From Psammoneis japonica (Eukaryota), in contig QPGO01000116.1 in assembly GCA_008632985.1 (NCBI GenBank), forward strand, positions 124,001 to 188,000: DNA of 64,000 nt. The letters are read 5' to 3'. This document shows, in pieces, positions 11,180 through 53,974 of the stretch. The position numbers and the translations under genes are program-made. Position 1 is the stretch's first letter. The number at the start of each line of letters is the position of its first letter. The notes under the pieces were generated by a model. The model made no database searches and had not been told where the DNA came from. It saw nothing but the letters and a program-made list of their open reading frames with translations.

Positions 11180-14100
11180 AGATGCCCACCAAAGTGCAAT
11201 CACAATGGACACTTCCTGCCTCCAAGCATGGCGTGGGTTGTTGTCACAGCATCCCCATGCCCCAGCCATTTGTTGCCATGCAAGCTGCCACAGATGCAAA
11301 GGCACCAGCACAACACTGCCAGCACTGGAAGAGTGGCTGATGGCTGCTGTTCTTGAGAGCCAAAGCACAGCAGGGAGGAGTGCGGGGTGATGGAACATTT
11401 GAGCAGTGTTCAACTTCTTCTTCTTCATCCTTGTCAGAGAGTCAGAGGAGTTGCAGTTCTCAAACAACCGCCACATTGAAGCTGGGGAAAGTTTGCCAGA
11501 TCAGACCACTGCACAGTCTCTTCTTGTAGAGCCAGCGCTGCCCCGGGGAATGTGCTCATTGCAACAACCGCTGCCACAGTCTGGACTCTGCTGCTCCAGA
11601 TTGAGTGCAGCAAAGGTCAAAGCTCTTCTTTGAGCAAGAGCACTTGGCCCCTTTGTGCAACAAGCTCCTCAAAATCTGGACAAAAAAAAAAGCTGCCATC
11701 AGAAGATTGTTCTGGCCGGCAACTCTGCTGGGGGATTGGAAAACCCCAGTTTTTCAAGTTTTGGCTGCTTTGCACATCACCCTCCACTCTGTTGGCAAGA
11801 GGAAATTTCCTGGTTCACCTTGCTCTGAGACAGAGGTTGGTGAGGTCTTTTTTCTCATTGACGAAGAGACATGTGGATGCTGTCAGCTCAAGAAAGGCAA
11901 AAAGTGCCACATCAAAAAGCTGCTTGACAATTGACAATTGTTCCACAATGGCAAAATTCTTTGCTCATGAGAACCCACCACCTTGGAGGCCAACCAACTG
12001 CCACTCCCTGCATCAGCTGCTCCATCACCTGTCAGCACTGTCACCAGCACATCCACAGAGTTCAAGAAGTTTTTCCCATGCTTCTTGCACTTGCCAGCTT
12101 GGGAATTGAGTGAGCTTGAACTTGTTTCTGCCAGAGGAGAACACATGGATGGATCCAAGCATGACCACAATTTTCTCCATTTGTTGGGAGGCATCAGCAT
12201 TGGAGCACAATGCTGCACAACCACTTGAAGAAGACATGTCATCAAGCAATGAAATGCAGTTGTTGCAGAGATGATCTGTGCAGCAGCTTCTGTTGCTGTG
12301 GATGATGACCCACACATGCAGAAGACCTGGACAAACAACATCAGCAGCTTTGTTCTTGTGTCCCCTTGCGTTGACATTCCACAACAGGTTGAGAACAGTT
12401 TGCATGCTGATGGCACATGAAATGATGAGCCTCTCTGGTCACATCATGAGCATCTCCATGAGTTGGCAAATGGCTGGCAAGGCAAGTCAAAGACATTGTG
12501 GGAAATGATGATCTTGAGAGATTGGTTGTGTGCATGTTGACAACTGGCCCAAGGGCACCAGTGCCATGGTGGGAGCACCTTCCTGTTTGAGGAAAAACAG
12601 GTCTGCAGCTGGGAGCCCACTTGGTCCTTGCCAAGAGACAGATTGATTGTGGTGCTGTGCCTGATGTGTCAAAGATCAGCTGTCCAACCAAAACAACATT
12701 TGGCCTTGCTGACCACACCACTGTTTCACAGTGTTTCACAAACAGCACCTGGCACTTTAGATGACTTGGTGGCACAGTTGCCCACTCGAGCCTTCCATTT
12801 TTTTCTTGCACTCTGAGAAAAGTTGCAAGTTGATCCTGGAGATCATGTGTCAACCTTTTGTTTGTGCGTCCTGTCAACTGCAAAAAATGCAGGACACCCA
12901 CCAAAGATGAGCACCTTGAAAAGTGAAAAGGGTGAATGATTTGACCACCCAATTTTGGGCCACCAAAATGACACAAAGTTGCAGGTTGCAGGGACAGATG
13001 TTGCCAGAGTGCAGGCCAATGCACACATCTTTGTTGCTGCAATCCCTGAGGAAGGCCAGAAGAAAGCAACTCTAAAGAATTTGCAGCTGAGCCTGAAGCC
13101 AGCTCCTTCACAACAGACAGTGACTCAGCCTGTCTCCATGAACTCTGCAAAGCATCACTTTTGCCTCACTGTGTTGCAGAGCTGCAGCACCAAGAGCTGG
13201 ATCCAAGCCCTGCAGACCTGTGTTTGTTGCCAAGGACAAAAGCACACTTCAACAGCTGTTGCCTGCTGGAGTGCAGTCTTGTGCTCTGAGCCATTGCTTG
13301 CACAACAGAGTTCTGTGCTGCAGACCGCTGTTTTGGTTGGAGGCAATTTGTGCTGAGTTGTTTGAGCCAAATCTGAACAGAGGAGAAGAGATCTCACCAA
13401 ATGAAAAACAGTGCAAAAATAATGGGCGCCAGCTGCAAGTGGTGCAGTGACAGGCTTTTTGATCAGCATCACCCAGATGCATGTGTGATGATGAGTGTCC
13501 TGGGGTTGGCAAGTGAGGGTCACATCCTTGAGCAATTTGTGGCTCTCTTGCTTGTCATTCTCAATTTTCTTGATGTGTTTGCAGTGCACTCCATCAACAT
13601 GGTCACCAGAACTTGCTCATTTTCTGGGAATGCACTTGTTTCCATCTGGTGCAGAGCTGATCCCATGTGATGGTGAACAAGGATGATGGTGATGAAAGAA
13701 CACATCTGGTGAGGTTGATCACAGCTGGGAGAGGAAAATTGAGTGGTTGGAACATGAAAGTGCCACCAAGCAGAAAGAGGGCTGGTGAACATCATTGTGA
13801 TGTGTGAGCTGAAGGCAAGGAAGCAAGTGAGGAAGCATCAGAGGAGTGATGTGGATGACAAGTCAAAACTGGCATGACAGACAGTTTAGCACCAGAGCAT
13901 TTGTTGGTGAAATGACCTTTGCTGTTTTCACACAACACAGTGGTGGAGAATGAGCAAGGCAACAAATGAACGGATTTGGCAAATGCAGTTCAAACCCTTG
14001 TGGAGGCTGCCAACTGCCAAAAAACACTGTCACATGTGCAGAAAGACACTGGCTGGGTTGCCATCATTCTTCAAAGTGGCAGCAGAGCAGAGACATGACA

Positions 14101-17100
14101 AAATTCCATGTTGCCTCATCTGCCAGACCCTGCCAAACTTCTTCCCCTCTGAGAGCATGCAAGAGTGCTGTCAGACAAAAAGGCAAGCTTTGGCACTCAC
14201 AAAGTCAAAATCAACACATGGAATGAACACAACAACAGCCTCTGTGCAACATGCTTGAGTCAGACAACTCATCCAAACCTTGTGATCAATGTGTCACTCC
14301 TTTGCTGTGTTGTTGTGTGTGCCAAAATTTTGGAAAGAAAGGCTGCAAGGAATCAACCAATGGATTGGTCATCTTTTGTCCAGCAGTGGGAACCAGGTTT
14401 CTGTGACATGACACAAACCACCTGCACCTTTCAGAACCAGCAGCATGTGTTGCAGCATCTGTGCCAGATGTGACAGCAGCTGTGCCAGATGCAGCAGCAC
14501 TGCAACAGCCAAGGAAGGAGCTTTTGCCAGAGCAAAAGCCCTGCCATGGTTGTGGTGTGTGCCAGCTCAAGAACTGCAGCAGGAATCTGAAATGTTTGAA
14601 GATGAAGCACATTCCCACCAAAACAAAAAGTGTGCAAAGTTGGAATGACTGCCAGCTGGCGATGCTTCTTGACAGAGGAGGGAGCAATTTGAGTCAGGCC
14701 CAACTGAGCTGTGCATCAAGTGCAGCACCATGATTGATCTCTCTTCTCTTGGCAAGGGCCAAGGGAATTTCTTTGGGCAGCAAACCCCTTTTCCCACAAA
14801 CTGGAAGGTGCTCCTGCAATGCTGCCCTTGGCCCAACTGCCAACATGGCTGTGCACCACCACAACCAAACTCTCAAGGTCCTTTTCTGCAATGATGGAGG
14901 CTCATGACATGACCCAAGGCTCACCTTTTTGTGTGCCCCATCAAGCAGATGACAAGCTGGCTGGTCATCATGAGGTTTTGCTGCATGAAGCTGTTCTCAC
15001 CCTCTGGTGAAACATCAGCACAGGACATCAACATGCAACAAAAGCTGCTGATGGTGTTCTCCTGTTGTCTTCTGCGCATGGATCATCATCAAGAAGATTG
15101 ATGAAAACTGAGTGGCACATCTCAACAGCAGCTGCTTTGCATCACTTGACCATGTCCTGCTTCTTTGCACAATTGTGCAGCACTGTGCTGCTCCAGCTCA
15201 TGACAAGCAGCAATGCCCCTCAAAAGGAGAAAGTGTTTTGGTCAAGCACATGTGGAGCCATCCATGCATTCTTGTTTTGGCTCGCCACTTTGGAGGAATG
15301 GTCAGTGAGGTCAGAGGTTGCCACAGCAGGAGGAGGTTTGTCATCAGGTGCAAGTTGAAGGCCTGAGCAAATGTTTTGAAATGGTGAACACCCACGCCAG
15401 TGGGGACCAGAGGGGCTTGACTTTGCAAAGAGGAAGGAGGTGGAGCAGCTGGCTCTCTTGAGAAATTTCTGACATTTCCAAGGAGCTCCAGAGCTGCAAA
15501 AAATCTGGCAGAGGCAATGGAGTTCACAGCATCTGACACTTCATTGGAGATTCCTGGAATCAGTGGGTGGGGTTGACCTTGCACCGGCAAGGCATCCTCT
15601 GGAAGGTCACTCATCATGCTTTGAAGGGTCTGAGCAAGGTGCAAGCAAACTTGCTTGTGATGTGGTTTCTTGTGCACCAAGACATTGAAATGGGGAAAAC
15701 TGGCCCTCCTCTTTTCATGGGGATGACATCCTGAACACCGTCAATGAGTTTGAGCCAGATGCAAAGGCAGAAATTGACAGTTTTGGCACAATGCAACAGG
15801 GGAACCAAACAAGTTGTTCCGGCAAGTTTGCATTGGTGCTGAATGGCCTTGCCATGCGCTTCAGCTTCAGGATGAGAACAGCGCCAATGGAAAAGGATTG
15901 GGAGCCACCTGGATTGAGTTCTTGGCAGGAGAAGAAATCTTCTGGGGAATGAGCCTGATTGGTGATTTTGCACAGCTGTTTGGCACAAGGCACAATGGCT
16001 TGGAGTTACTTGATGACAACATCAGTGGAACAGCATTGAGGGAAATGCTCAGTGATGTGCAAGGTCTGTGGTGATGGGGCGTCTCATCCCATTCATGATG
16101 CTGTGCACAAATGGAACTGTCTTTGAGAGTCTCACTCACAAAAGAAATGTCTCAAATGTCAGAGAGGGCAAAAGAGGTGTGGAGGTGATGGACAATGACA
16201 TGTGCAGGCTTGTGATGATGAGTGCCACCAATGCAATGAATCACAAAATGTTGAGAGTGAGTTCTCAGACAGGAAAAAGCAGCAACAGCACTGACAACGA
16301 TGGGGCTGATGCAGCAAGTGGTGGTGTGTGGGTGCTGGTTGACTTCTAAGGTGCTAGAAGGCTCATGATGCAGCATCAGTGAAGAATTTTGCCACACGAA
16401 AATCCCAAGCAGCAGCTGTTTGATGTGACATTTTTCACCTTTGAACCAACACAGCCTTCACACATCTCTTGGTCAATTGGGAAAAACCTCACCAACTTGT
16501 CTTGCAGCAAAATGAATCAGGAAATTTGACCTCTTTCCAGCAGCATCAGAAGGTGACAGTGCAAAAAGCAAGGTTGGAACCAGGATTTCCCACCCCCCCA
16601 GCATCATTGTCAGTGTCAAAACAGCACTCTGAAAGCAGCACTTGTTTGCCCAGATTTCAAAGAGCTTGTTGCACAAAGGGGCAGAGCACTCTGGCTCAAA
16701 GTGCGCGACATGCTGCACAACCATGGCCCTTGCAGCGAGCGAGCCGAGAGTGGGGATGATCATGAATCCCACACGAAGAAGAAGAAGAGACTGCAGTGGT
16801 CTGACCAGGCAAATGCCATGGCTCCAGCTGCTCCCCAAGAACCACCATTCCCCTGGCAAGAATGCAATGAGAGAAGTTGGACACTGCTCAAATGATGTTT
16901 CATCACCCCATGCTCCTCCCCGCCCCGATCGCTGGCTCTCTCAACAAAACAACAAGAAGAGCTGCTCGCTCTCCCAGCTCTCACTCTCCTCCTTCAGTGC
17001 TGCTGATGCCTCAGCATCCACAGCAGCTTGCATGGCAACAATGGCTGGGATGTCAGGGATGCTGTGACAACAACCCATGCTGCGCTTGAAAACCCTTGCA

Positions 17101-38192: not shown

Positions 38193-39482
38193 ATGCAGGC
38201 AGGATCGAACTTTGTCGAGACTAGACGTAAAGAGCATGAATACCTAGCGCTCTTCCACGCTCACAAAAATCTCATTGTTGGCGGACACGGCGTGGTGGAG
38301 AAGCCTGTAAATGCCAAAGGCGAGTGTGGCCGTAAACAACCTAGACGCAGCATGACGATAAAAGAGGCAGCAGAAATAAGCAACAAATCTCTTATGAACT
38401 TCTTCCCATCCTTTGATACGTTGGGAGACGTGAACTATTTTCAAGAACACGAACTCTCTGTCGAGGAGTGGCTCCAGTATTGCCTCTACAAGCTACCAGA
38501 AAAGAGGAGGCGCGTACCACAGCCAATCCTCGACCTTGAAAACAATAGCGATAGACAGGATGACATGCCTTCTTTCTTCTCGCCTTCCGACGCTGGTCGA
38601 GAGCTTTCTCCAGGCTATTTCCTGCATCCTGTGACTCAAGAGAACCTTGCAGATGCACAAGATCTTCTCTTGGAGATTTTTCCTGACGACGTTGCGCATT
38701 TTGAAGTTGTATTTTCGGTTCTTAAGAAGCCCTTTATTGAGTATGAGTTTGACAGCGACATTGAAAACTCTCCCACCGTTGCCAAATCTTTCTTTTGGCT
38801 GATCGTCGAGAAGGCGACTGGATCGCCTGCTGCCATTTGTTCTTTAATGTACCGTGATGAGGACTATGAAGACTCGCTTTGGGGGAGTTGGTATGGCGTT
38901 GGTCCAACCTTTCGTCGTAAAGGGTTGGGTTCTTTAGTTCTCCTCTTCTTGTTAGAAAAAAGTGTCTTGTCTCGCAAAAGAACCGCCAAGTTCTTTACTG
39001 AGGAGTTGGATTTTGAAGAGCAAGCCAACAGTTTGTACGACTACGTCGGGGCGAAAGTGTACAAACGCCAGTACTTCCCGAAAGGCAAGTGCCACCGTAT
39101 CTGGAGGCAGGCTCAAGTCGGTGGTTCGTTGAAGAATTTGTTCGTTGGGCTTCTGCTTATCAACATTCTGCGATTTCTGCATCGTTGTCGATGCTTGTTG
39201 TGGGAATTGTCTGACCTTGCTTCACTGCAACAAGACAGCAAGCGGTCCGTCATTTGCGCCCCTGCGAAGACGACGAAAGGTGACAAGCTACTGGGCTGGC
39301 TAATCGTGCTCCTTCCCCTATCTTTCGTGACGGAAAGCGTGAGGCGCTTTGCAGCGCGCTTTCCCAGCATCGTACAGCAGACGGTTGTATCCATCGTCAA
39401 CCCATTTGAACCCTCACAATCAGAAGTTGTGGAAGTTCCTCCAATCAATAGCCAAGCCAACAGCTTGGAAAAAGGTGACTGA
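38193..39482 (+). CDS. GNAT-family acetyltransferase, paralog 1
   Basis: Motif A WYGVGPTFRRKGLGSLVL, motif B ANSLY..VG; hydrophobic C-terminal segments; the true start may be downstream. Confidence 0.75.
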   Translation: MQAGSNFVETRRKEHEYLALFHAHKNLIVGGHGVVEKPVNAKGECGRKQPRRSMTIKEAAEISNKSLMNFFPSFDTLGDVNYFQEHELSVEEWLQYCLYKLPEKRRRVPQPILDLENNSDRQDDMPSFFSPSDAGRELSPGYFLHPVTQENLADAQDLLLEIFPDDVAHFEVVFSVLKKPFIEYEFDSDIENSPTVAKSFFWLIVEKATGSPAAICSLMYRDEDYEDSLWGSWYGVGPTFRRKGLGSLVLLFLLEKSVLSRKRTAKFFTEELDFEEQANSLYDYVGAKVYKRQYFPKGKCHRIWRQAQVGGSLKNLFVGLLLINILRFLHRCRCLLWELSDLASLQQDSKRSVICAPAKTTKGDKLLGWLIVLLPLSFVTESVRRFAARFPSIVQQTVVSIVNPFEPSQSEVVEVPPINSQANSLEKGD

Positions 39483-41050
39483 ACGGTCAGTGCACTTCTA
39501 ATGTCTCCCTGTGCTTGTGGCTAGATCCTGTTTGGGATCAGCATTGCGATAGAGTGCAACATTTTTGTCAGCCTTTCTTGTTGTACGGTGCAACATAAAT
39601 CTCACGGTGTTTCACGAAAAAGTGCCAAGTTGCACACACACAGACAAACGTAATTATTTTTAATCATTATTTTGTTTATAAACATGTCGTCGCTAGCCTA
39701 CTGCAACAGTCTGTATCTCTTTTCTTCAGCAACCAAGCCACGCCCAACGCATTCTTCGTCTAGAGAGGCACTTCCAACAGAAATGGACCCACACCTCACC
39801 AACTGCACCACTGCTGTTTACGACAACCACCATTGCCAGTCCCCATCCACACTCGGGACTTGTTTGACCATTTGTGTGGGGAAGACGGCACAGAATTCAC
39901 AGAAAAAAGTGCTGGGTTGTGTGCTTTTTGTCGCCTTAAAAGTGGAGGTGGGTTTGCAAATGGACTGCCACCACAGTCAGCAAGCTCCACCACACACGTT
40001 GCTCATGCTGAATCTGTTCTTTGCTTGTGCAGGAAAATGCCATCAAGAGAAATGAGACACTCACCCAAGTTTTGCCATGCAATGCAGGGATGAAAATTCA
40101 GTTTGGTCAAGAGGTGCTGTTGGGAAGTGCAAAGCTCTTTCTGTTGTTCAAAAGAAAGCAAGATGTGGCAAGTTGGCCAACTGACAAGAAGTTTTTGACT
40201 CTGAAGAGGATTCGAAGGTGAAAGAAATGTGCACAACCCCCAGGTCTGAGTTTCACCCACTCTCTCTTCCAAGGTCATGTCTGATGTGAATCACACTGGC
40301 AATCTCCAGTGTCAATCACACAAAGAAACATTGAAAGAGAGCTGGTGCATGTTCTTTTCGGCATGTTTGTGCTGGGCATCCTTGACAATGAACTTGAGCA
40401 TTTGCAATGAAAAAACCTTTGTTCAAAAGAAGAGCTGACCATTGATTCTGAGTGAGAGCTCAATCAAGTGCCAGCGACATAAAAATGAAAGTTGATCCAA
40501 GGCTGGCAATGGCACCCAACTGCAGAATGGGCTAAACAAGCTCAGAGCATCTGCTTTCAGCAGTGCAGCAGTTGACCATCTAGGTGCATTGTTTTCAGCT
40601 TTGGTGCTCACATGAAAAATAAAAAAAATGCACACACTCACTGCTCACTTGCTTTCCTGTTGACACACCCAAACTCCATCACTTTTCTGTGGCCTGTTCT
40701 ACATTTCATTCATTGCCATCCAGACACTCAAGGCTTGAGGATCTGATGGCCCAAATGAACAAATGTTCTTGTCAAAGAACTCTTGTCATGCAGAGTGTTG
40801 GCCTGGAAGAAAGGCCACTTCAAGCCCTCACAGCCATGGACATCCATGCCAGCAGAATGACAAGCAAAACGAAAATGTCAGTGGAGCAATGCAAACAACA
40901 AAGAACTGCTGATGACAACCATCACAGCATGTCAACCAGGGCACCTTTCAGATGTGATTCTGAGTCATCCTGCCAAATTTCACAGCCCCAGGCACCGCCA
41001 GTGGTTTGTGACATCTGCGCATCCAAGAGGAGGTGAGGAGCCAAGCAAAA

Positions 41051-41054
<4 letters not shown>

Positions 41055-41090
<36 letters not shown>
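41055..41090. repeat. (CT)n microsatellite
   Basis: Run of about 17-18 CT units. Confidence 0.95.
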
Positions 41091-41095
<5 letters not shown>

Positions 41096-41835
41096 TACCC
41101 AGTGCAAAGCCTGGTCTTGTGGTTGTGCACTGCTGAGATCTCCTGCAACTGTGTGGGCATCATTGTGTTTTGGAAAGTGAACACAACATGGCTGAAGAAT
41201 GGGAAGAGGGGGTCAGCCAACAAAGACCAGGTGCCTGTGCACAAGATCTGGGAGACACAGAAAAAAGGCTCACAGGCCATGCAAGTTTTGTCAAAACAAG
41301 TCCAGTTGTCAATCGATCACAACGCGCTCACAGATGTGTCTTCTTTGGAGCATTGCAAGTCATTCTAACAAATGTCATTGCCACAAGTGCTCCCAATGCT
41401 CCATGGCATTGTTTCATCACAAAGGCGTGTGCCACCCAACAGGAATTGTGACACCCTAAAAACTCATGCCATGTTTGCATCATCAAAGAAAAGACCCCAA
41501 TCCATGCCGAGGTTTGGATGACACAAGTGACAATGATGCAATGTGCAGCTGCAAGTGAAAAACATCAAGAGAATGATGATTTCACAATGTGCACCCAGAG
41601 CAGAGATTGTTGCCTCCAATGTCAGCTGTCGCAGAGCAATGCTGCAGCCTGCGTGCAATGTGGCAAATTTCAATTCTCTCCAAAGCTTGAAAAAAGCCAA
41701 GCAATCTTTTTCAAAGTTGGCAATCTTGACAAAGAGCATGGATGGTTTCATGGGTGACTTTGAGCCACTGGAGCTGTTTCAGCTTTTTCAAATGAAAATC
41801 AAGCTCTCGGCTGGCCTCAAGAACCTTGTCACCCC

Positions 41836-42212
41836 TTTGGATTCATGAGTGCAATGCACCACCAACGGTTCAAGACCCTTTAGACCGATGCCGCACCCGA
41901 CACTCTCCAGCTCCAAGATGCTTGCAATGTGACTCTGATGTAGCTGGTCATGCTGAGCCACTCAATGACACAGATCCATCAGCACTGATTGGAAAGAGAA
42001 CAAGAGAATTGGTGCTTTGCAAATGAGCTGGCTTTGCACCACAAACCTGCTGTCAAACTCACCCCGTGGGCCTCGTCCACCCAACCGTCGGTCGAGAGAA
42101 TGTTTGCATTTGACAGACTCATCATTTCTCTCATTTGCTGAAAATCTAACAAGCACAGGTGGTTGCAGCCAAGTCAAACTTGTCAAGATGATGTGATCGC
42201 TTCTGTGGTGAA
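41836..42212 (-). pseudogene. Decayed copy of the TRAPPC5 5' region (exon 1, intron, start of exon 2, promoter)
   Basis: Aligns to about 37387-37780 (e.g. cctcgtccacccaac, tgtcaaactcacc, cagcactgattg) with deletions and YpR transitions. Confidence 0.9.
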
Positions 42213-42816: not shown

Positions 42817-43288
42817 AGTCGTGGTTCGTCTGTCCACTGACCCAGATTCTCTGTTGTGTCTGTGCTTCCGTCAGTCGGAATTCTCGTTGAAATTCTTTTC
42901 GCGCTACGTCGACTTGATTCTCAAGCCGAATGCTTTGGGAATCACAGGCGGTGCTTTGGAGATCACAGGCTTTGCACAGATGTTGGGCCAACCACAGATT
43001 GGTTCAGCAGCATTTGGATGATTGTTGTGAATGTGGTTGACCCTGAAGTTTGCACCAGTCTCTAGTGCAAACCTGCAGATCAACCTCTGTTTGGGTGCAT
43101 TCAGCAGATTCAGTCTAGGTGGCTCACAATTTGGTCGCCAGCACTTTTGTGAAAGACTGAACACTCGTCACCACTCGTCAGCAGATTCCATCTGCTTGCA
43201 TTCTGCCTGAGGTGTCAATCTGGAGTGGACATCCAGTCGATGCGTCAGGAAGGCACTCGGAGCTTGCGCGGACACGCGAGCTTCGACT
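42817..43288 (+). repeat. 5' LTR
   Basis: AGTCG..CGACT, colinear without indels with the 3' LTR. Confidence 0.95.
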
Positions 43289-43672
43289 GGCCAGTTCGCC
43301 CAATTGGGGCAACTCAACACGTTCTGCGCTTCTGGTTGGGGATGCCCAAACCAGAGCAACCCTGTCAACAGCTCTGATGCCATCAGTGCTCCTCATTGGC
43401 TGTGCTCCGTGCTCTTGACATCAAGCACTGCGACTGACTCCGTCAGCTGAGTGGCTGGTTCCGCCAGAAGGTTCATTGTTGATTTTGCACGTGCACCATC
43501 TCAGGCCCCACTCCACCCCGCGGCCCTCCTGAGACCCAAGAGAGTTCTCCAAGCTTGCACTCTTTGATTGAGAACATCCCAGACGATTGGTCCGACTCGA
43601 CAGCTTCAAGCGTGCTGTCGGACATGGCTGACGACCCCGAAGTGTTCGAGGATCAGCCTCCTGAGGATCAAC

Positions 43673-44121
43673 TGCAATGTGCAGCTACCAACAAGAGTCA
43701 ATGCATCACGGCGACGTGTTGCAGCCTTTAAATGTCACAAAGGGCGTGACGAAAATAACCTTTTGTCTGCATGCATGCTGCGTTGTGAATTCACAGCGGA
43801 GTGGTTCATCTCGCAACCATTGGGCAGGAGGCCAGGGGTTCGAAACCCTGAGTGGGAGTTGTCTGCAGCAACGTTGATCACTGTCGAACGCGCAAAACTC
43901 TGTGCAGTTCTGCATGTTCCTTCGCACGCACCCACACTGTTCCGCCAAAACCGTGCAGTGTCAGCACACGTCAGCAAAGAGCCGCATGGATGCATGATGC
44001 ATGGGGAGGAGTGCAATGCACAGCTGCCAATGAGAGTCAATGTGTCACGGCGACGTGTTGCAGCCTTTAAATGTCACAAAGGGCATGACAAAAATGACCT
44101 TTTGTCTGCATGCACACTGCA
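43673..44121 (+). mobile_element. TRIM (miniature non-autonomous LTR element) nested in the Copia gag
   Basis: 110-bp direct terminal repeats 43673-43782 and 44012-44121, TG..CA ends, PPT ggggaggag before the second repeat, 4-bp TSD CAAC. Removing it restores the gag frame EDQ-PPQGDN. Confidence 0.88.
43794..43850 (+). promoter_or_regulatory. tRNA-type Pol III internal promoter (A box and B box) inside the TRIM
   Basis: cagcggagtgg (TRGCNNAGYGG if TA to CA is reverted) at 43794-43804 and GTTCGAAAC at 43838-43846 in a caggg..ccctg stem; 33-nt spacing as in tRNA genes. Confidence 0.6.
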
Positions 44122-47100
44122 CAACCTCCACAGGGGGACAATCCACCACCTCAGGACCCCAACAACCCAGACGACAAGCCTGTTCCACCCTTGGAACTTC
44201 GCCTGGACGATTCGGATGACGACTCGGACGATGATGATGATGAGCCCGCTGCAGGCTCTGGCATGTCGGAAGACGAGCGTCGCACCATTCAGGCCATGGC
44301 TGCCATGGCAGCCGCGGCGATGCCGAAGATGAAAGTCTGCAAACCCAAGGCTCCTAAGATGGGGGGGGGTTGTCTCCATTGGCTCCACTGAAAAAGTTGC
44401 TTGGACCGGTGGGAAACCCAAGGCTGGCTGGTCCAGATTGGAAACTCCCAACTCCAGTCCAACGTCACCAAATCAGTGTCGCTCCCACCACGTTTCTTCC
44501 GCCCAGAAAAGCAAGGCCCACTGAGTTGCCGGACTTTCAACCAAGTTTGACAAGAAGGGAGATCTTGCAACCTTTGAGAAGAATGTGATGAAGCATCTCA
44601 AGGGCTGCGGTTTGGATGCGGTGACTTGCCTGCAGGACCCCAAGGACTCAACTTCCGTGATGTCTTGTGTTGAAGGACATCCTCGGCACTCCAAATCGAG
44701 CGTCGCCCGTCTTGTCGCACCTCAACTCGCCAAGCATGACTCCTGCGATTCATCCAATGACAGGGACACTGCTGAGTTTCTCAAGAACTCCTTGGAGGCT
44801 AGCCTGGCCATGCAGCTGGATCTGGAGACGGAAGAGTCGGATTGCTTTCCGAAAGTCTGGACAGCTCTCGTCGTGATCCTTCAGAGCACATCCATCGAAC
44901 GCTTCAAGCAGCTCGAAAAGCAGCTAGAGGAACTCAAGCCCTCCCAGTTCGCCGGTCAGGATCTCTCCCAGCTCCTGTCCAAGTTCAAGACTGCGGCCCA
45001 AGAGTTGGATGTTGCGGGTCAGTGCAACCACAAGCTGACGCTTGCCTTGGTCAACGCTTGCCTGGAAGCTGGCGGGGATGGCAAAAACGGTCAGCAGTTC
45101 AAGCACGCCCTTCGCACTGTGAAAGAGAATTTGAGCAAAGCACTTGTTGAGACAGCGCACAAGTCTAAGACAGACGCGAAACGACACCTTGCGTCCAAGA
45201 ACCTTGCCCACTCTCAAGTCATTGGAAAGATCCTGGACCGCTGCCGCTTGTTCAAGAACAACACGCAGTGGGATCCTGTCAAGCATGCGACAGACTCCAA
45301 AGCCGCTCCCAGAGCCTTTGGAAACCTGGCACTTGATCCCTCAGCCACTTGTCAAACGGTTGGAGTTCCACTCACTCAGGCCCAGTTCAATGCTCTCTTC
45401 CAGCAGACGGCTGCTCCCCGCAAGAAGACTCCGGAAAACTCTCCATGCAACAACTGCGGCAAGCTCGGACACTGGGCACGTGACTGTCCCAACAAGTCTG
45501 GTGAGGGCACTGGAAACAACCAAGGCGGCTCAAACCCTGGGCAAAATGGTGGAGGACAAGGAGGAAGGGGCAAGACCCGCTCCGGTGGCAACGGAGTCAA
45601 GGTGGTGACGGAGGCAATGGCAACGGTGGCGCCGTGCGCAACTGGAAGAAGGTCGCGCCTCGTCCCAGACAACCTGAGTCCAAGGTTGCTCAGGGCAAGA
45701 CTTGGCACTGGTGTGCCAAGTGCCGTCGTTGGTCCACCACTCACGGTGCTGCTGAGCATGGGCAGAAGGATGAGTCACCTCCTGCGCCGACTCAGCAGGC
45801 CAACACCCTCTTCCTGGATCCTGGAGCGTGGCACGCGGAATTCGACTTTGAGTTGGGATTCAAGGACGCACCACTTGGACTGTTTCAGGTTGTGCTCACC
45901 TTGATCCACCCTTTTGCATCTCTGCTGCTCTGTGCCACCTTGGGACATTGGTGTTCTCAGCTTCCGGCCAACTGGTGGATTGCTGGAGTCAACGCCATGA
46001 TCTGGTTCGTGACGGTCGTTGCGTCGCATGTCTCATCACATTGGCGCCTCTGTCCTTTGCCCGCAATCTGGTTCCTTCTGCTTCCAGTGGCGGCATTCTT
46101 GCCGTCTAAGTTTGAGCGTGATGCTCGTGCCGAAGCCCCACGTGCTCCTCCTCCACCCCCTCCTCCCCGCTGGGCCACACACCAAGGAACCAAGTTCTCC
46201 AAGCGCCGCGAACGTTGGGGGTGTCGTCGCCTGCGGGAGCTTCAGCCTCGCTGCGGACGCCGCCGTGCTCCACCCAGGCATCCCTCTCTGTCCAACGTGC
46301 CCGTGGGGCGCCTGGTGTCAAGCAGCGGCAGCGCAATCAGTTGTGTGACCTCAGTGAAGAGGTCAAGGCCTTCGAGCGGTCACTCACCTTCATGCACGCA
46401 CGTCCTCTCCTCGGTCGAGAGGGAGAAGCCGGTCGTCCCAAGGGCACCAGACGTTGTAAGAGCACTGCTCTAAAAAGGGGTCCTGATGTTCGTCATCAAG
46501 GTCGTCGGAACCTCAGTGCACCCATGTGTCGCCCTGTTGGTTCAAATGCTGCACACGGTTTGACGCGCTCCCAGCTTGATGCCATCTGCTCCCCAGCAGC
46601 CAAGGCTTGTCTTGCCAATGCTGACGTCCCGTAACCTCTACTTTCTGTTGCTGGCGCTCTCAAGGTGGCGTTCACGAGTCCCAAGGAGACAAAGGAAGTG
46701 GTCAAAGAGCACACCTTCCCGGTCATTTGGGACTCAGGAGCAAGCGTGTCGGTCTCACCTTGCAAGGACGACTTCGTCGGGCCTCTCGAGAAACCACCTG
46801 TCGCCATCCGGCTCCAAGGTGTCGCAAAGGGCCTCCATGTGGCAGGTGTTGGACACGTTGCTTGGTCTTTTGTTGATGTCATTGGGGTGCTTCGGACCCT
46901 GAAGGTTCCGGCCCACTGCATCCCCAAGTCCAAGGCTCGTCTCTTGAGCATGACCAGTCTCTTGCAGACGCACTTGGATGAGTCCATCGAACTGCTGTCG
47001 GACCGCACCATCCTCAGTGGATCCAAGAATCGTGAACAAGGACACAGGCGAGGTGTTGAAGTGTTGATTGAACCTTCAACTAACCTGCCGGTTGGATGGG

Positions 47101-49231
47101 CCTGCGCGAATCAAGCAAGTCAACAAATTTGTGAGGAGTTTCATTTGACGTTGTCGACGATTGTGGAGCACAATCACAATGTCTCACCTGCTGAAAAGGA
47201 GCTGCTACGTTGGCACTTTCGTCTCAGGCATCTGAGCTTTCGAAAGGTGCAATTTTTGATGCGTGCGGGAGTTCTGTCCCACTCCGAGGGCACCCATCAT
47301 TTGCATGAACGCACTTGTCGCATCGATCGTCCGCCCCTTTGTGCCGCATGCCAACATGGAAAACAAAAACACCGTCCCAGCCCCGGAAAGACTTCTCGTG
47401 TCGTCAAGGATCGAGCTGGAGCCTTGAAGAAGGACCAACTGTTCCCCAGTCAATGAGTTTTGGTTGATCACTTTGTTTGTTCCACTCGTGGTCGTCTGAA
47501 ACACACTTTTGGAAAGGAGAGCATAAAACATCAGCATTTGGGCAGAGCAATCTTTGTGGATCATGCATCCGGTTGTGTCAACGTTCAACATCAAACTCAC
47601 CTTAATGCCCATGAAACTTTGACGGCCAAGAACGCGTTTGAGGCCCATTGTCGTGATTGTGGCGTTGTTCCCCAAGAATGTCTGAGCGACAACGGAAAGG
47701 CGTTCACGTCGGCCAATTTCAGGGTTCACTTGGAATCTTTTGCTCAAGTTTCAAAGTGTGCCGGTGTGGGAGCTCACCATCACAATGGGGTTTGTGAACG
47801 AGCAACACACACTGCGATGTCGATCGCGAGAAGTGTGATGTTGCATGCGGCGATCCATTGGCCTGATGTTGCGGATGCCACTCTTTGGCCTTTGGCTGCA
47901 GACCACACTGTTGTGCTTCACAATGTGATGCCAGACCCATCTGCGGGTCTAAGTCCACAGGACATGTTCACCCAGATGCGCAACCCTCACTCTCGGTTCC
48001 AGGATTGTCGTGTTTGGGGGTGCCCTGTTCATGTTCTTGACAAAGCCCTCGCCGATGGAAAGAAACTGCCAAAGTGGAAACCCCGCGCGAGTTGGCATGT
48101 CTGTGTGGGACTCAGCCCCGAGCATGCCTCGTCAGTCCCGCCAGTCTTGAGTCTTGAAACGGGAGCCATCACTCCACAATTCCATGTCGTTTTTGATGAT
48201 TGGTTTGCGACGGTTCCTGCCAATGCCAGCTCGTTGCCTCCCATTGGGTCTCTGGAATGGACGTCTCTTTTCGGAGACAGTGCATGTCAACATGCTGTGG
48301 ATGATGAAGAGCAGGCTGATGTCGACATCCATCAAGAACACCCAGAATGTGAGCGCCGATCCGAGGAAATCCGCGAAACCGTCACCTGCCGTTCGCCTCC
48401 CAAACCCTCACAGGTCCCTCCTCTGGCTGCTCAGGCACCAGTGTCTTCTCCCAAGGCCCCCTCGAGTCCTGTTGTGGAAACCCCGGTCCCTGAGGTGGAG
48501 TCCATGCCTCCACCAGAGTCTCCTGCTGAACCTGTGGCTTCAGACTCGCCTCAGAGGGAGAGAGCACCCGCTGCCAACTCAAATGCCCCACCAAGTCCTC
48601 AGAGGGAGCCTCCCACCCCTCGCAGTCTTTCTTCGGATCTCGGTCAAGAGAGGGAGTCACCACCTGTGGCTCCACCCAGCACACAACGCCCCTCTCCAAC
48701 CCCAGTTCGTCGCTCAACCCGGACTCGCGCTGCGCCCCAGCGGTTTGGATGTGATGGATCTCAGGGACACGGATGCTTGTCTCACTTCGTTGATTTCCAT
48801 CATGCACACAAGTTTGACCACGGTTGCAACATGTCCATGACTGCTCCCACCGTGTGCAAGGCGTCGGTGCGTGAAATCAAGGATCCGGGTGCGCCATCGT
48901 GGGACGAGGCCATGCGCTCTTCCGATCGCGACAAGTGGTTGAAAGCAGCTGAGATCGAGATTGCAGCACTTGTCCATCAAGGAATGTGGGTCGAGGTGCC
49001 TGCATCCGATGCTCGAACCAAGATCCTTCCCGGCACTTGGGCATTTCGTCGCAAGCGATCACCTTCAGGCGAGATCAAGAAGTGCAAGGCTCGCTGCTGT
49101 TGTCGCGGCGATCTGCAGGAAGGAAGTCTGTTTGATGCTTGTGCACCGGTTGCAGCCTGGAGTGCAGCTCAAGCATTTTTGGCATTGAGTCTCATTCTTT
49201 GGATGGCATGCGGCATCCGCCGATTTCCAGT

Positions 49232-49834
49232 CCGCATTTGTTCAAGCAGTGCTTCCTGTGGAAGAACCAGTTTGGATTCATCTTCCATGAGGTTTCAGCT
49301 CAATGAAAGGACCCAAGACTTGTCTCAAGCTCGTCAAGAGTCTCCTGGACTCTCTTCGGCTCCAAAGTTGTGGTGTGAACATTGTCTGCAAGCCTTCTTG
49401 GACTTGGGTTTCATCCAAAGCGAGTACGACCAATGTCTCCTGCTTCGCCATGATTGCATGGTCTGCCTGAATGTCGATGATTGCGGGATCAGTGCAGCGC
49501 AGGAGCCCACCATTGATCAGCTGATGTTTCAGCCGCATTCGTTCAAGCAGTGCTTCCTGCGGAAGAACCAGTTTGGATTCATCTTCCATGAGGTTTCAGC
49601 TCAATGAAAGGACCCAAGACTTGTCTCAAGCTCATCAAGAGTCTCTGTGGACTCTCTTCAGCTCCAAAGTTGTGGTGCGAACATTGTCCACAAGCCTTCT
49701 TGGACTTGGGTTTCATCCAAAGCGAGCACGACCAGTGTCTCCTGCTCCGACATGATTGCATGGTCTGCCTGCATGTCGACGATTGTGGGATCAGTGCAGC
49801 GCAGGAGTCTACCATCGATCAGTTGATGTCTCAG
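49232..49834 (+). repeat. About 301-bp tandem duplication within RT
   Basis: ccgcatt(t/c)gttcaagcagtgcttcctg.. begins at 49232 and again at 49533; both copies encode SSAPKLWCEH..VDD. Confidence 0.92.
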
Positions 49835-50905
49835 CTGCACGAGAAAGGATTTGAATTGACGAAGGAGGGCAGTTTTGCCAAGTTCTTGGGCATCAAGTTC
49901 GAAAGGAGAGACGACGGCACCATCAAGTTGACGCAGAAAGGGTTGACTGACAAGATCCTGTCAGCTGCCGGCTTGATTGATGGCAAACCAAACTCACTCC
50001 CTGCGGCGTCCCAAGCCCTCGGCACCGATGCGGATGGAGATCCCATGCAGGAGGACTGGAGCTGTCCCTCCGTTGTTGGAATGCTCCTGTGCTTGTCCAC
50101 CAATGCCCGTCCTGACATTTCCCTTGCCGTCAGTCAGGTTGCACGCTTCAACTCCAACCCGAAACAGCCGCGTGCAACGCCGTCAAGACTCTGGTCCGCT
50201 GCTTGAAAAGGACGCATGATCAGGGGATGCTGCCATCTCCAACCGGTCGTTTGGATCTTGATTTGTGGGTTGATGCCAATTTGCTGGTCTCTGTCGCTGC
50301 GAAGCAGATTCTGATCCGAGTTCTGTGAGGTCACGCACCGGATGCATCACAACTCTCAGTGGATGTCCTTTGGTGTGGAAATCGCAGCTCCAGTCAGCCA
50401 TTTCCTGCTCCACCCTCGAAGCCGAGTGTCAAGCCGCCTCCTGTGCTCTTCGGACTCTCCTGCCTTTGAAGAACCTGCTCCTTGAGATCGTCTTTACCTT
50501 GGACATCTCCCAAGATCTCAGGACTTCGGTTCGTCCGCGTGTGTTCGAAGACAATCAAGGCGCTCACTGCCTGGCTGCCAACCACCGCATCACCAATCAT
50601 GCCAAGTGTTTTCTCGTCAAGTGGCATTGGCTCTGGTTGCATTGTGATGAGTTCAACACGATTGAGGTGGAATCGGCCGAGCAACTCGCCGATTGTCTTG
50701 CCAAGCCTTTGACTCGAGAGCTCTTTGAGAACAACCAGTTGAAGGTCCAAGGGTGGCGGCACTTTGGAAGCATCGCTTCCTTTGTTTGTCATGTGTTGTG
50801 GCTTGGTCAAGATGTGGGAGCTTTGCTCTGAACTTGTGCCAATTGTGTGAGCTTTCTCGTTTGCGATTTTCTTGTTGGTTGCTGGAATCTGTGAATGAGA
50901 GGGAG

Positions 50906-51377
50906 AGTCGTGGTTCATCTGTCCACCGACCCAGATTCTCTGTTGTGTCTGTGCTTCCGTCAGTCGGAATTCTCATTGAAGTTCTTTTTGCACCACGTCG
51001 ACTTGATTCTCAAGCCAAATGCTTTGGGAATCACAGGCGGTGCTTTGGAGATCACAGGCTTTGCACAGATGTTGGACCAACCACAGATTGGTTCAGCAGC
51101 ATTTGGATGATTGTTGTGAATGTGGTCAACCCTGAAGTTTGTGCCAGTCTCTGGTGCAAACCTGCGGATCAACCTCTGTTTGGGTGCATTCAGCAGATTC
51201 AGTCTAGGCAGCTTGTGGTTTGGTCACTGGCACTTTTGTGAAAGACCAAATGCTCGTTGCCACTCGTCAGTAGATTCCATCTACTTGCATTCTGCCTGAG
51301 GCATCGATCTGGAGTGGACATCCAGTCGATGCGTCAGGAAGGCACTCGGAGCTTGCGCGGACACGCGAGCTTCGACT
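50906..51377 (+). repeat. 3' LTR
   Basis: Preceded by the PPT and followed by TSD TTCCG. Confidence 0.95.
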
Positions 51378-52663: not shown

Positions 52664-53974
52664 ATGTTCAGTGTCGCAGTCGCAGTTACTTATTTAGTGC
52701 AGGCGGGATTAAAATTTGTCGAGAATAGACTTCGAGCGGGATTATTGCGATGGAGCGCTCGTCCACGCTCACAAACATCCTCGTTGTGGGCGAACACGGC
52801 GTGGAGGAGAAAGCCAGTACATGTCAAAGGTGTGTTTGGTGATAAACAAGCAAGGCGCAGCATGACGATATCACAGGCAGCAGAATTAAGCGACAAATCT
52901 CTTATGGATTTCTTCCCATCCTTTGATACGTTGGGAGACGTGAACTATTTTCAAGAACACGAACTCTCTGTCGAGGATTGGCTCCGATATTGCCTCTACG
53001 AGCTACCAGAAAAGAGGAAGTGCCTACTTGAGAACAATGGCGATAGACAGGATGGCATGCCTTCTTTCTTCTCACCTTCTGACGTCGGTCGGGAGCTTTC
53101 TCCAGGCTATGTCCTGCATCCTGTGACTCAAGAGAACCTTGCAGATGCACAAGATCTTCTCTTGGAGATTTTTCCTGACGATGTTGCGCATTTTGAAATT
53201 GTTTTTTCGGTTCTTAACAAGCCCTTTATCGAGTACGAGTTTGACAGCGACATTGAAAACTCTCCCACCGTTGCCAAATCTTTCTTTTGGCTGGTCGTCG
53301 AGAAGGCGACTGGATCGCCTGCTGCCATTTGTTCCTTAATGTACCGTGATGAGGACTATGAAGACTCGCTCTGGGGGAGTTGGTATGGCGTTGGTCCTAC
53401 CTTTCGTCGTAAGGGGTTGGGTTCTTTGGTTCTCCTCTTCTTGTTAGAGAAAAGTGTCTTGTTTCGCAAAAGAACCGCCAAGTTCTTTACTGAGGAGTTG
53501 GATTTTGAAGAGCAAGCCAACAGTTTGTACGACTACGTCGGGGCGAAAGTGTACAAACGCCAGTACTTCCCGAAAGGCAAGTGCCACCGTATCTGGAGGC
53601 AGGCTCAAGTCGGTGATTCGTTGAAGATTTTGTTCGTTGGGCTTCTGCTTATCAACATTTTGCGATTTCTACATCGTTGTCGATGCTTGTTGTGGGAATT
53701 GTCTAAACTTGCTTCACTGCAACAAGACAGCAAGCAACCCGTCACGAGCACGCTTGCGAAGACGACGAAAGCTGATAGGCTACTGGGCTGGCTAATCGTG
53801 CTCCTTCCCTTATCCTTCGTGAAGGAAAACGTGAGTCGCTTTGCAGCCCGACTTCCCGGCATCGTGCAGCAGACGGTCGTATCCATGATCAACCCATTCG
53901 AATCCTCGCAGTCAGAAGTTGTGGAAGTCGCTCCAATGAAAAGCCGCGCCAACCGTTTGGAAAAAGATGACTGA
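52664..53974 (+). CDS. GNAT-family acetyltransferase, paralog 2
   Basis: Core nearly identical to 38193-39482. Confidence 0.75.
   Translation: MFSVAVAVTYLVQAGLKFVENRLRAGLLRWSARPRSQTSSLWANTAWRRKPVHVKGVFGDKQARRSMTISQAAELSDKSLMDFFPSFDTLGDVNYFQEHELSVEDWLRYCLYELPEKRKCLLENNGDRQDGMPSFFSPSDVGRELSPGYVLHPVTQENLADAQDLLLEIFPDDVAHFEIVFSVLNKPFIEYEFDSDIENSPTVAKSFFWLVVEKATGSPAAICSLMYRDEDYEDSLWGSWYGVGPTFRRKGLGSLVLLFLLEKSVLFRKRTAKFFTEELDFEEQANSLYDYVGAKVYKRQYFPKGKCHRIWRQAQVGDSLKILFVGLLLINILRFLHRCRCLLWELSKLASLQQDSKQPVTSTLAKTTKADRLLGWLIVLLPLSFVKENVSRFAARLPGIVQQTVVSMINPFESSQSEVVEVAPMKSRANRLEKDD

What the first reader, a model, noticed from the sequence alone, without database searches (positions are those of the whole stretch)
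43673..44121. 449-bp TRIM with an internal tRNA-like Pol III promoter, nested in gag
Seen: 110-bp terminal repeats, PPT, a 4-bp CAAC TSD (unlike the host Copia's 5 bp), and directly after the first repeat an A box and B box at tRNA spacing with a T-arm-like stem. Its two repeats again differ only at YpR sites (9 sites, including cta/ctg and ata/atg). Established: plant Cassandra TRIMs carry 5S-derived Pol III promoters in their LTRs. Inference: a SINE/TRIM hybrid that may be Pol III-transcribed or supply its own tRNA-like primer, mobilised by a different (possibly Gypsy-type) integrase.
Basis: partly seen in the sequence, partly recalled or inferred. Interest (0 to 1): 0.7.

Follow-up and report, generated by a model that had tools for sequence, protein, structure and literature searches.

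The report
Diatom mini-retrotransposon with internal tRNA promoter
This is a real, abundant, gene-less jumping element in a diatom-like genome that carries a worn tRNA-gene promoter between its end repeats rather than inside them, so it is an unusual variant of a recently described kind of element, and whether that promoter helps it copy itself is still untested.

Summary
43673-44121 is one copy of a family of 445-450-bp miniature LTR retrotransposons (TRIMs): 387 exact LTR-core hits, perfect 4-bp target duplications in 64 of 78 copies, solo LTRs, and a single CAAC at the empty site in 7 of 7 other Copia copies. The A and B boxes are real (1 of 1500 shuffles scores as high) but the cloverleaf is gone. 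There is no tRNA primer site; a 12-nt palindrome sits there, as in this genome's Gypsy elements. One Gypsy family shares the 4-bp TSD, the first 10 LTR bases and the end, and is the likely helper. Unlike Helenus and Cassandra, the promoter lies outside the LTRs, so a Pol III RNA would run from the palindrome to the T4 in the 3' LTR and lack U5; it cannot regenerate the element alone. 'Own tRNA primer' is not supported; Pol III transcription is untested. The YpR differences come from post-insertion TpA-to-TpG/CpA mutation, which has also hit A-box T8 in most copies. The scan noted what appears to be this family twice before elsewhere in this genome. New variant of a known kind.

The parts
43669..43672 (+). 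Left target-site duplication CAAC
   Evidence: single CAAC at the empty site in 7 of 7 other Copia copies
43673..43782 (+). 5' LTR, 110 bp, TGCA...TGCA type ends (last base G in this copy)
   Evidence: solo LTRs with 4-bp TSD
43735..43740 (+). TCACAA, similar to a motif found 42-70 nt before the LTR end in 7 of 7 Gypsy LTRs examined; candidate Pol II start (weak, short motif)
   Evidence: function inferred
43752..43758 (+). A-rich stretch about 43 nt before A-box T8, in the AT-rich zone seen upstream of this genome's tRNA genes; candidate TFIIIB site (weak)
43761..43764 (+). T4 run in the 5' LTR, upstream of the predicted Pol III start
43784..43795 (.). 12-nt palindrome in place of a tRNA primer-binding site; overlaps the first two bases of the A box
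   Evidence: same placement in the Gypsy elements examined
43794..43804 (+). Pol III type-2 A box; T8 changed to C here and in most copies
   Evidence: T8 kept in 7 of 62 copies
43800..43821 (+). Short hairpin (AGTGGTT / AACCATT) replacing the tRNA D and anticodon arms; recurrent family variants fall mostly in its loop
   Evidence: my reading of the variants
43837..43847 (+). Pol III B box GGTTCGAAACC in a decayed T arm
   Evidence: (intact in 59 of 62 copies)
44003..44011 (+). Polypurine tract
   Evidence: no substitution in 62 of 62 copies
44012..44121 (+). 3' LTR, 110 bp
44100..44103 (+). T4 in the 3' LTR: first possible Pol III terminator after the boxes
   Evidence: present in 30 of 30 copies, no internal T4 but one near the 5' LTR; 13 of 31 tRNA genes have only T4 downstream
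44122..44125 (+). Right target-site duplication CAAC
42817..51377 (+). Host Copia element (LTRs 42817-43288 and 50906-51377, ends AGTCG...CGACT, 5-bp TSD), broken reading frames

Best explanation
A non-autonomous TRIM copied in trans by a Ty3/Gypsy family of the same genome. Its replicating RNA starts inside the 5' LTR, most likely by Pol II (inferred). Minus-strand synthesis is primed at the 12-nt palindrome by pairing of two RNAs rather than by a tRNA (inferred from the shared Gypsy anatomy). Plus-strand synthesis uses the PPT, and the helper's integrase makes 4-bp duplications (TSD shown, helper inferred). The lineage captured a tRNA- or SINE-derived head just behind the palindrome and kept its A and B boxes while losing the cloverleaf (shown). 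In unmutated copies this is probably a working type-2 Pol III promoter that makes a roughly 320-nt RNA from the LTR/palindrome junction to the T4 of the 3' LTR (inferred). That RNA lacks U5 and cannot regenerate an element alone. After insertion a host TpA-to-TpG/CpA process damages most copies, including A-box T8 (shown).
For: Family and TSDs. Helper: the L115 Gypsy family (RT, RNase H, integrase) has 4-bp TSDs in 5 of 5 elements, against 5 bp in 6 of the 9 other elements checked. It shares the first 10 LTR bases with the TRIM against 3-4 for other families, and both prefer C at target position 1 (23 of 38 and 47 of 73). Palindrome of 10-14 nt after the 5' LTR in 14 of 14 Gypsy elements when YpR changes are allowed; 12 nt or more occurs at 92 of 5000 random places under that rule. 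Boxes; 237 genome hits to an A+B pattern against 1 control, 96 of the 100 listed being this family; ten promoter positions other than T8 kept in 57-62 of 62 copies. Cloverleaf lost: 9.9-13.3 bits with a model of the genome's own tRNAs. An A box lies 12-20 nt after the start site (10.1101/2020.04.17.046805, passage), which puts the start at 43774-43782. TA kept at 11% of 35 sites in 62 copies, CG at 90%.
Against: No RNA evidence for either polymerase. The Pol II start motif is short, and its match in the TRIM is only 6 of 9 bases. Conservation of the boxes among young copies is weak evidence of selection, because non-TA divergence is only about 2% and the A box shows the same rate as the rest (0.020 against 0.023; B box 0.004). 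No sequence similarity to any Gypsy locus beyond the ends. Middle target bases differ between TRIM and helper candidate (A/T 109 of 146 against 42 of 76, p=0.004). A second Gypsy element, L131, also has a 4-bp TSD, and only 20 of 485 Gypsy candidates were fetched whole. Palindromic priming is itself unproven.
Confidence: 0.5

Rival explanations
1. Passenger relic: an ordinary Pol II TRIM that once captured a tRNA or SINE head. The boxes no longer drive transcription, or only bind TFIIIC, and play no part in replication.
For: T8 is lost in 55 of 62 copies. No excess conservation of the A box. The promoter sits where it cannot make a complete genome. Autonomous Gypsy elements have no B box near the 5' LTR in 14 of 14 cases.
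Against: In the least-mutated copy both boxes fit the consensus fully while pairing and parent identity are lost, which suggests selection on the boxes. No free SINE parent found. T8 loss is post-insertion damage, not a property of the templates.
Confidence: 0.27
2. Helenus/Cassandra-like: Pol III makes the full replicating RNA, starting unusually far upstream inside the 5' LTR (nt 85-92) and ending at the 3' LTR T4, or reading through it.
For: Cassandra has an 18-nt terminal overlap made by Pol III (PMC10886601, introduction). TBP can choose a site within a 20-bp window. TTTAAA lies 30 nt before LTR nt 85 and keeps its TA in 57 and 51 of 62 copies.
Against: Needs a start 30-37 nt before the A box against the usual 12-20, and escape from a T4 within the first bases. 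TTTAAA is kept in both LTRs after insertion, which selection on transcription would not explain.
Confidence: 0.1
3. The tRNA-like part is processed into a primer for the element.
For: The tRNA-like 5' end overlaps the primer-site position.
Against: No acceptor stem or CCA; no internal match of 6 nt or more to the post-LTR site; a cut at tRNA position +1 would leave only 3 nt of the palindrome (geometry). Kojima found no such complementarity in Helenus (section 3.6).
Confidence: 0.03
4. The A/B match is chance.
For: No Rfam or default ARAGORN call; model E-values of only 0.04-0.5; 1 of 580 background tiles scores as high.
Against: 1 of 1500 shuffles. The only exact match to a 22-nt piece in the metagenome collection is a bacterial tRNA-Ala gene, 25 of 26 identical. 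TA-intact and TG copies score about 26 bits, inside the range of real tRNA genes.
Confidence: 0.04

Closest known systems
Helenus (TRIMp3), Kojima 2024, PMC10886601 (read parts 1-4 of 6: abstract to discussion; one supplement searched)
   Same: Short non-coding TRIM; tRNA-derived A and B boxes kept while the tRNA fold is lost; 4-bp TSD with a Gypsy helper, as in animal Helenus; solo LTRs and tandem arrays.
   Different: The tRNA-derived part is single and internal, not in both LTRs; a palindrome replaces the tRNA primer site; diatom-like host (diatom names: 0 in main text; 0 in the held supplement).
Cassandra (plants) and Ajax (nemerteans); PMC10886601 and passages of PMC7215508
   Same: TRIM with Pol III promoter elements and a possible terminator in the LTR.
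   Different: Those carry 5S-derived boxes inside each LTR, so Pol III can make a terminally redundant RNA; here the boxes are tRNA-type and outside the LTR.
Fungal GalEa Copia elements with a palindromic 'conserved hairpin site' (PMC5445492, passages) and Tf1-type self-priming
   Same: No tRNA primer site; a palindrome directly after the 5' LTR.
   Different: Those are autonomous; their palindrome is 9-10 nt with a downstream complement; Tf1 primes from the RNA 5' end. Repbase notes on self-priming palindromes in Thalassiosira LTR elements are recalled only and were not found by search.
biv-TRIM of bivalves (PMC6934838, passages)
   Same: TRIM without a canonical primer site, with palindromes and short tRNA similarities in the inner domain.
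   Different: No A/B box pair was seen in the passages read ('polymerase III' occurs 0 times).
tRNA-derived SINEs
   Same: Head with A and B boxes at tRNA spacing and decayed cloverleaf.
   Different: Always between LTRs here, fixed 4-bp TSD, PPT, no tail.
TpA hypermutation in Bigelowiella natans (bioRxiv 10.64898/2026.01.13.699255, passages)
   Same: TpA to TpG/CpA changes in foreign DNA.
   Different: There observed in mutation-accumulation lines on viral inserts; here inferred from retrotransposon copies in a diatom-like genome.

Membership tests
TRIM | Under 1 kb, no coding capacity | tested here: met
   449 bp; longest ATG frame 31 codons in the least-mutated copy; no Pfam match across it
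TRIM | Two short LTRs, PPT, fixed-length TSD, multicopy with solo LTRs | tested here: met
TRIM | tRNA-complementary primer-binding site | tested here: not met
   Best match at the site is 7 nt, to a tRNA-Met anticodon loop, among 40 tRNAs (the set lacks several isotypes); palindrome instead
Helenus / TRIMp3 | tRNA-derived sequence inside both LTRs | tested here: not met
   One A/B pair, 12 nt after the 5' LTR
Helenus / TRIMp3 | Conserved A box (TRGCY..YGG) and B box (GGTTC) with no functional tRNA | tested here: met
   fifth A-box base is G, not Y
Helenus / TRIMp3 | 4- or 5-bp TSD tied to a Gypsy or Copia helper | tested here: met
   4-bp TSD; matching Gypsy family; helper relation is inferred
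Helenus / TRIMp3 | Transcription by Pol III | not testable with these tools
   Only one assembled contig of a relative was available
Cassandra / Ajax | 5S rRNA-derived domain in the LTR | tested here: not met
   No Rfam 5S match up to E=10
tRNA-derived SINE | Free copies without LTRs, with a tail | tested here: not met
   19 of 19 box-selected TRIM-type loci have an LTR upstream; 137 of 237 pattern hits were not listed
tRNA gene | Cloverleaf scoring as tRNA | tested here: not met
Gypsy-dependent element (L115 family as helper) | Shared termini, TSD length, primer-site type and target preference | tested here: inconclusive
   Termini, TSD length and palindrome agree; target position 1 agrees, middle bases differ; no internal similarity

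The most novel reading that the evidence does not exclude
A two-polymerase retroelement. The predicted Pol III RNA runs from the primer-site palindrome to a T4 in the 3' LTR, which is exactly the stretch copied after the first strand transfer. It could pair through its 5' palindrome with a co-packaged LTR-initiated RNA, donate the primer after cleavage, and serve as acceptor template, while the other RNA supplies only R-U5. The internal promoter would then be selected as a replication amplifier, a design not described for Helenus, Ajax or Cassandra in what I read.
Probability: 0.13. Interest if true: 0.82.

Novelty: new variant of a known kind. Interest (0 to 1): 0.42.

Why it matters
It widens the TRIMp3 idea in two ways: a diatom-like host, and a promoter placed after the primer site instead of inside the LTR. 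That placement makes a sharp prediction, a 320-nt RNA without U5, so one RACE experiment separates the models. If that RNA takes part in reverse transcription it would be a new replication design. The element is also a compact substrate for two open questions: how palindromic primer sites prime, and how a host converts TpA in inserted DNA. Practically, over 200 such boxes outnumber the real tRNA genes found in this genome.

Tried and rejected
ARAGORN at default and Rfam to E=10 found no tRNA. ARAGORN at a relaxed threshold gave 87 inconsistent calls in 30 copies, treated as noise. Parent tRNA not assignable: Glu, Pro, Ala and Asp score alike. Folding z-scores were weak, -0.4 to -1.9. Searches for an autonomous partner sharing longer ends found none: (18 hits: TRIM copies, L132-family Gypsy with a 5-bp TSD, other hits; 2 hits, both TRIM; 0 hits), BLAST of 40 Gypsy loci (none). 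Metagenome scan found no relative, only a bacterial tRNA. One RNA run held 9% of the words; one 262-nt contig covers 43778-44048 with 32 other letters and 14 gaps, and 9 of 21 listed substitutions restore a TA by my reading. Its left end is near the predicted Pol III start, but contigs cannot show starts, so I do not use it. Targeting to tRNA genes: no TRIM within 1.5 kb of 30 tRNA loci. TA retention in copies does not track flank TA content (rho -0.02, 78 copies). TTTAAA resistance was not explained by flanking-base context in other repeats. An RNase P cleavage model was rejected on geometry. A search for the diatom initiator consensus gave nothing usable. Not-in-print searches: searches returned no paper on a diatom TRIM with an internal tRNA promoter; the library lacks most subscription papers and Repbase.

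Full report
Observation. The window holds two 110-bp direct repeats at 43673-43782 and 44012-44121, flanked by CAAC, with a purine tract before the second. They differ at 13 bases in 9 YpR dinucleotides. The element sits 385 bp after the 5' LTR of a Copia element (zinc knuckle, gag-pre-integrase and RVT_2 domains; LTR ends AGTCG...CGACT and a 5-bp TSD). Seven of seven other copies of that Copia have one CAAC and no insert at this site, so the TSD is a true insertion mark. A neighbouring gene has DUF6824, which I recall as diatom-typical; I call the host diatom-like on that basis and did not identify it further.

Family. A DNA search gave 322 candidates, 40 scored, 45 matches, 42 of them nearly full length at 85-100% identity. 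A 21-nt LTR core has 387 exact matches and its control none. Of 87 loci given, 78 held a full copy: 64 with a perfect 4-bp TSD, 6 with one mismatch, 3 with more, 5 with unclear ends. None of the first 30 had a 5-bp TSD; two pairs among them are duplicates of one insertion. Among 20 loci with a single LTR-core hit, three are solo LTRs with a 4-bp TSD, and tandem forms occur. This is a TRIM.

The tRNA-like part. Default ARAGORN and Rfam see nothing. I collected 40 distinct tRNA genes from the genome, 38 of which entered a weight matrix. The window copy has an A box at 43794 and a B box at 43837, 43 nt apart; 1 of 1500 shuffles and 1 of 580 background tiles reach its score. A genome-wide A+B pattern has 237 hits against 1 control; 96 of the 100 listed are this family, 3 are tRNA genes, 1 is another repeat. 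All 19 box-selected TRIM-type loci fetched have an LTR upstream, so no free SINE was seen. A covariance model from 29 own tRNAs gives five TRIM copies 9.9-13.3 bits with many broken pairs, and no hit for a sixth. The only exact metagenome match to a 22-nt piece is a bacterial tRNA-Ala gene. No parent tRNA stands out. So the boxes and 3' half are tRNA-derived and the cloverleaf is lost, as in SINE heads and Helenus.

Mutation. One copy (L146) keeps 35 TA dinucleotides and has LTRs differing at one base. Measured against it, in 62 copies of 70 loci not chosen for their boxes, TA is kept at 11%, becoming CA (48.5%) or TG (36%), while CG is kept at 90%. This matches the TpA signature reported in Bigelowiella natans (bioRxiv 10.64898/2026.01.13.699255, passages), a lead I took from an earlier scan note. 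It also removes A-box T8 in 55 of 62 copies, whereas ten other promoter positions are kept in 57-62 of 62. Against selection being visible: the A box changes at the same non-TA rate as the rest of the element (0.020 against 0.023; B box 0.004), and the family is too young for this test to have power.

Primer site and helper. After the 5' LTR there is no tRNA complement longer than 7 nt at the site (tRNA set incomplete). There is a 12-nt palindrome instead. I fetched 20 of 485 Gypsy candidates whole and examined the LTR ends of 14; all 14 have a 10-14-nt palindrome at this place when YpR changes are allowed, 8 of 14 strictly. TSD length differs among them: 4 bp in 5 of 5 elements of the L115 family and in L131, 5 bp in six others (two with one mismatch), unresolved in two. 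The L115 family encodes RT, RNase H and integrase in Gypsy order, shares the first 10 LTR bases with the TRIM where other families share 3-4, ends in TGCA, and has T plus a 12-nt palindrome. Target position 1 is C in 23 of 38 of its sites and 47 of 73 TRIM sites; the middle bases differ (p=0.004) and I have no background control for this. There is no similarity beyond the ends. It is the best helper candidate, not a proven one. A 4-bp TSD alone is not diagnostic, since the diatom Copia Blackbeard has one (PMC2806351, passage). Palindromic primer sites are described for fungal GalEa elements with no established mechanism (PMC5445492, passages).

How it most likely works. An A box lies 12-20 nt after the Pol III start (10.1101/2020.04.17.046805 and PMC7279448, passages), so Pol III would start at 43774-43782, the last bases of the 5' LTR, just before the palindrome. 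The LTR has an A-rich stretch 43 nt before T8, within the AT-rich zone upstream of 29 own tRNA genes (weak). The first T4 downstream is in the 3' LTR at 44100-44103, and T4 is the longest run after 13 of 31 own tRNA genes. The predicted RNA is about 320 nt and lacks most of LTR nt 93-110, so it cannot regenerate an LTR alone. The replicating RNA must therefore start in the LTR; a TCACAA motif 48 nt before the LTR end resembles one at 42-70 nt in 7 of 7 Gypsy LTRs (weak). T runs near LTR ends also occur in autonomous Gypsy LTRs, so the T4 is not special evidence for Pol III. I put 0.5 on this Pol II-replicated TRIM with a promoter that works in intact copies, 0.27 on a pure passenger relic, 0.1 on a full-length Pol III genome, 0.03 on an own tRNA primer and 0.04 on chance. 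The boldest reading, a sub-case of the first, is that the Pol III RNA spans exactly the primer site to R and acts as primer donor and acceptor template (0.13). None of this is shown at RNA level.

Comparison and novelty. The closest described kind is Helenus (Kojima 2024, PMC10886601; parts 1-4 of 6 read; one supplement searched). It works like Helenus in carrying tRNA-derived boxes in a TRIM, but fails the defining test: the boxes are not in the LTRs and there is no tRNA primer site. Searches found no paper on this arrangement or on diatom TRIMs of this type; of PMC13570524, PMC7215508, PMC6934838 and PMC8545674 I saw passages only, and supplements of these and of the preprints were not seen. 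Repbase was not available and may hold diatom examples. Earlier notes of this scan describe what appears to be the same family elsewhere in this genome (e1-7618289, e1-7691797), the palindromes (e1-7621546), and internal or split tRNA promoters in TRIMs of other genomes; these are unchecked AI notes, not support. Verdict: new variant of a known kind, interest 0.42.

Noticed in passing
window 43568-44332: The TRIM plus one TSD adds 453 nt (151 codons) and is stop-free in the host frame, because TA loss removed stops; one open frame runs through the whole insert.
   Followed up: no
window 42817-51377: The host Copia has non-canonical ends AGTCG...CGACT, followed by TGG and then a CCCAATTGGG palindrome; no matching tRNA among the 40 collected.
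   Followed up: partly
L195, L200, L201, L204-L208 (e.g. L204:1487-1559): A second repeat family with a 727-bp tandem unit carries a much better tRNA-like cloverleaf (29-37 bits), a T5 right after it and telomere-like AACCCTA repeats; it does not look like an LTR element. Its head is only slightly closer to this TRIM's than real tRNAs are.
   Followed up: partly
window 12001-16000 and about 40001-42000: These stretches lack both TA and CG (ratios 0.02 and 0.06 at 12001-16000), whereas the Copia and TRIM lack mainly TA; this suggests older repeats or a second process.
   Followed up: no
window 43727-43732 and 44066-44071: The TA in TTTAAA escapes mutation in 57 and 51 of 62 copies while most other TA sites are lost; unexplained.
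   Followed up: partly
L001-L175 flanks: 76 of 78 TRIM copies sit in TA-depleted flanks, so they are found almost only in other mutated repeats, including the least-mutated copy.
   Followed up: partly
L115-L134: Gypsy families in one genome differ in TSD length (4 or 5 bp) yet all examined have a palindrome instead of a tRNA primer site.
   Followed up: yes
L085:51-124: ARAGORN calls a tRNA-Phe with an AAA anticodon, unusual for a nuclear gene; possibly a pseudogene.
   Followed up: no
window 38301-38834 and 52811-53326: A duplicated stretch with long open frames (430 and 441 aa, no Pfam match) lies on both sides of the repeat block.
   Followed up: no
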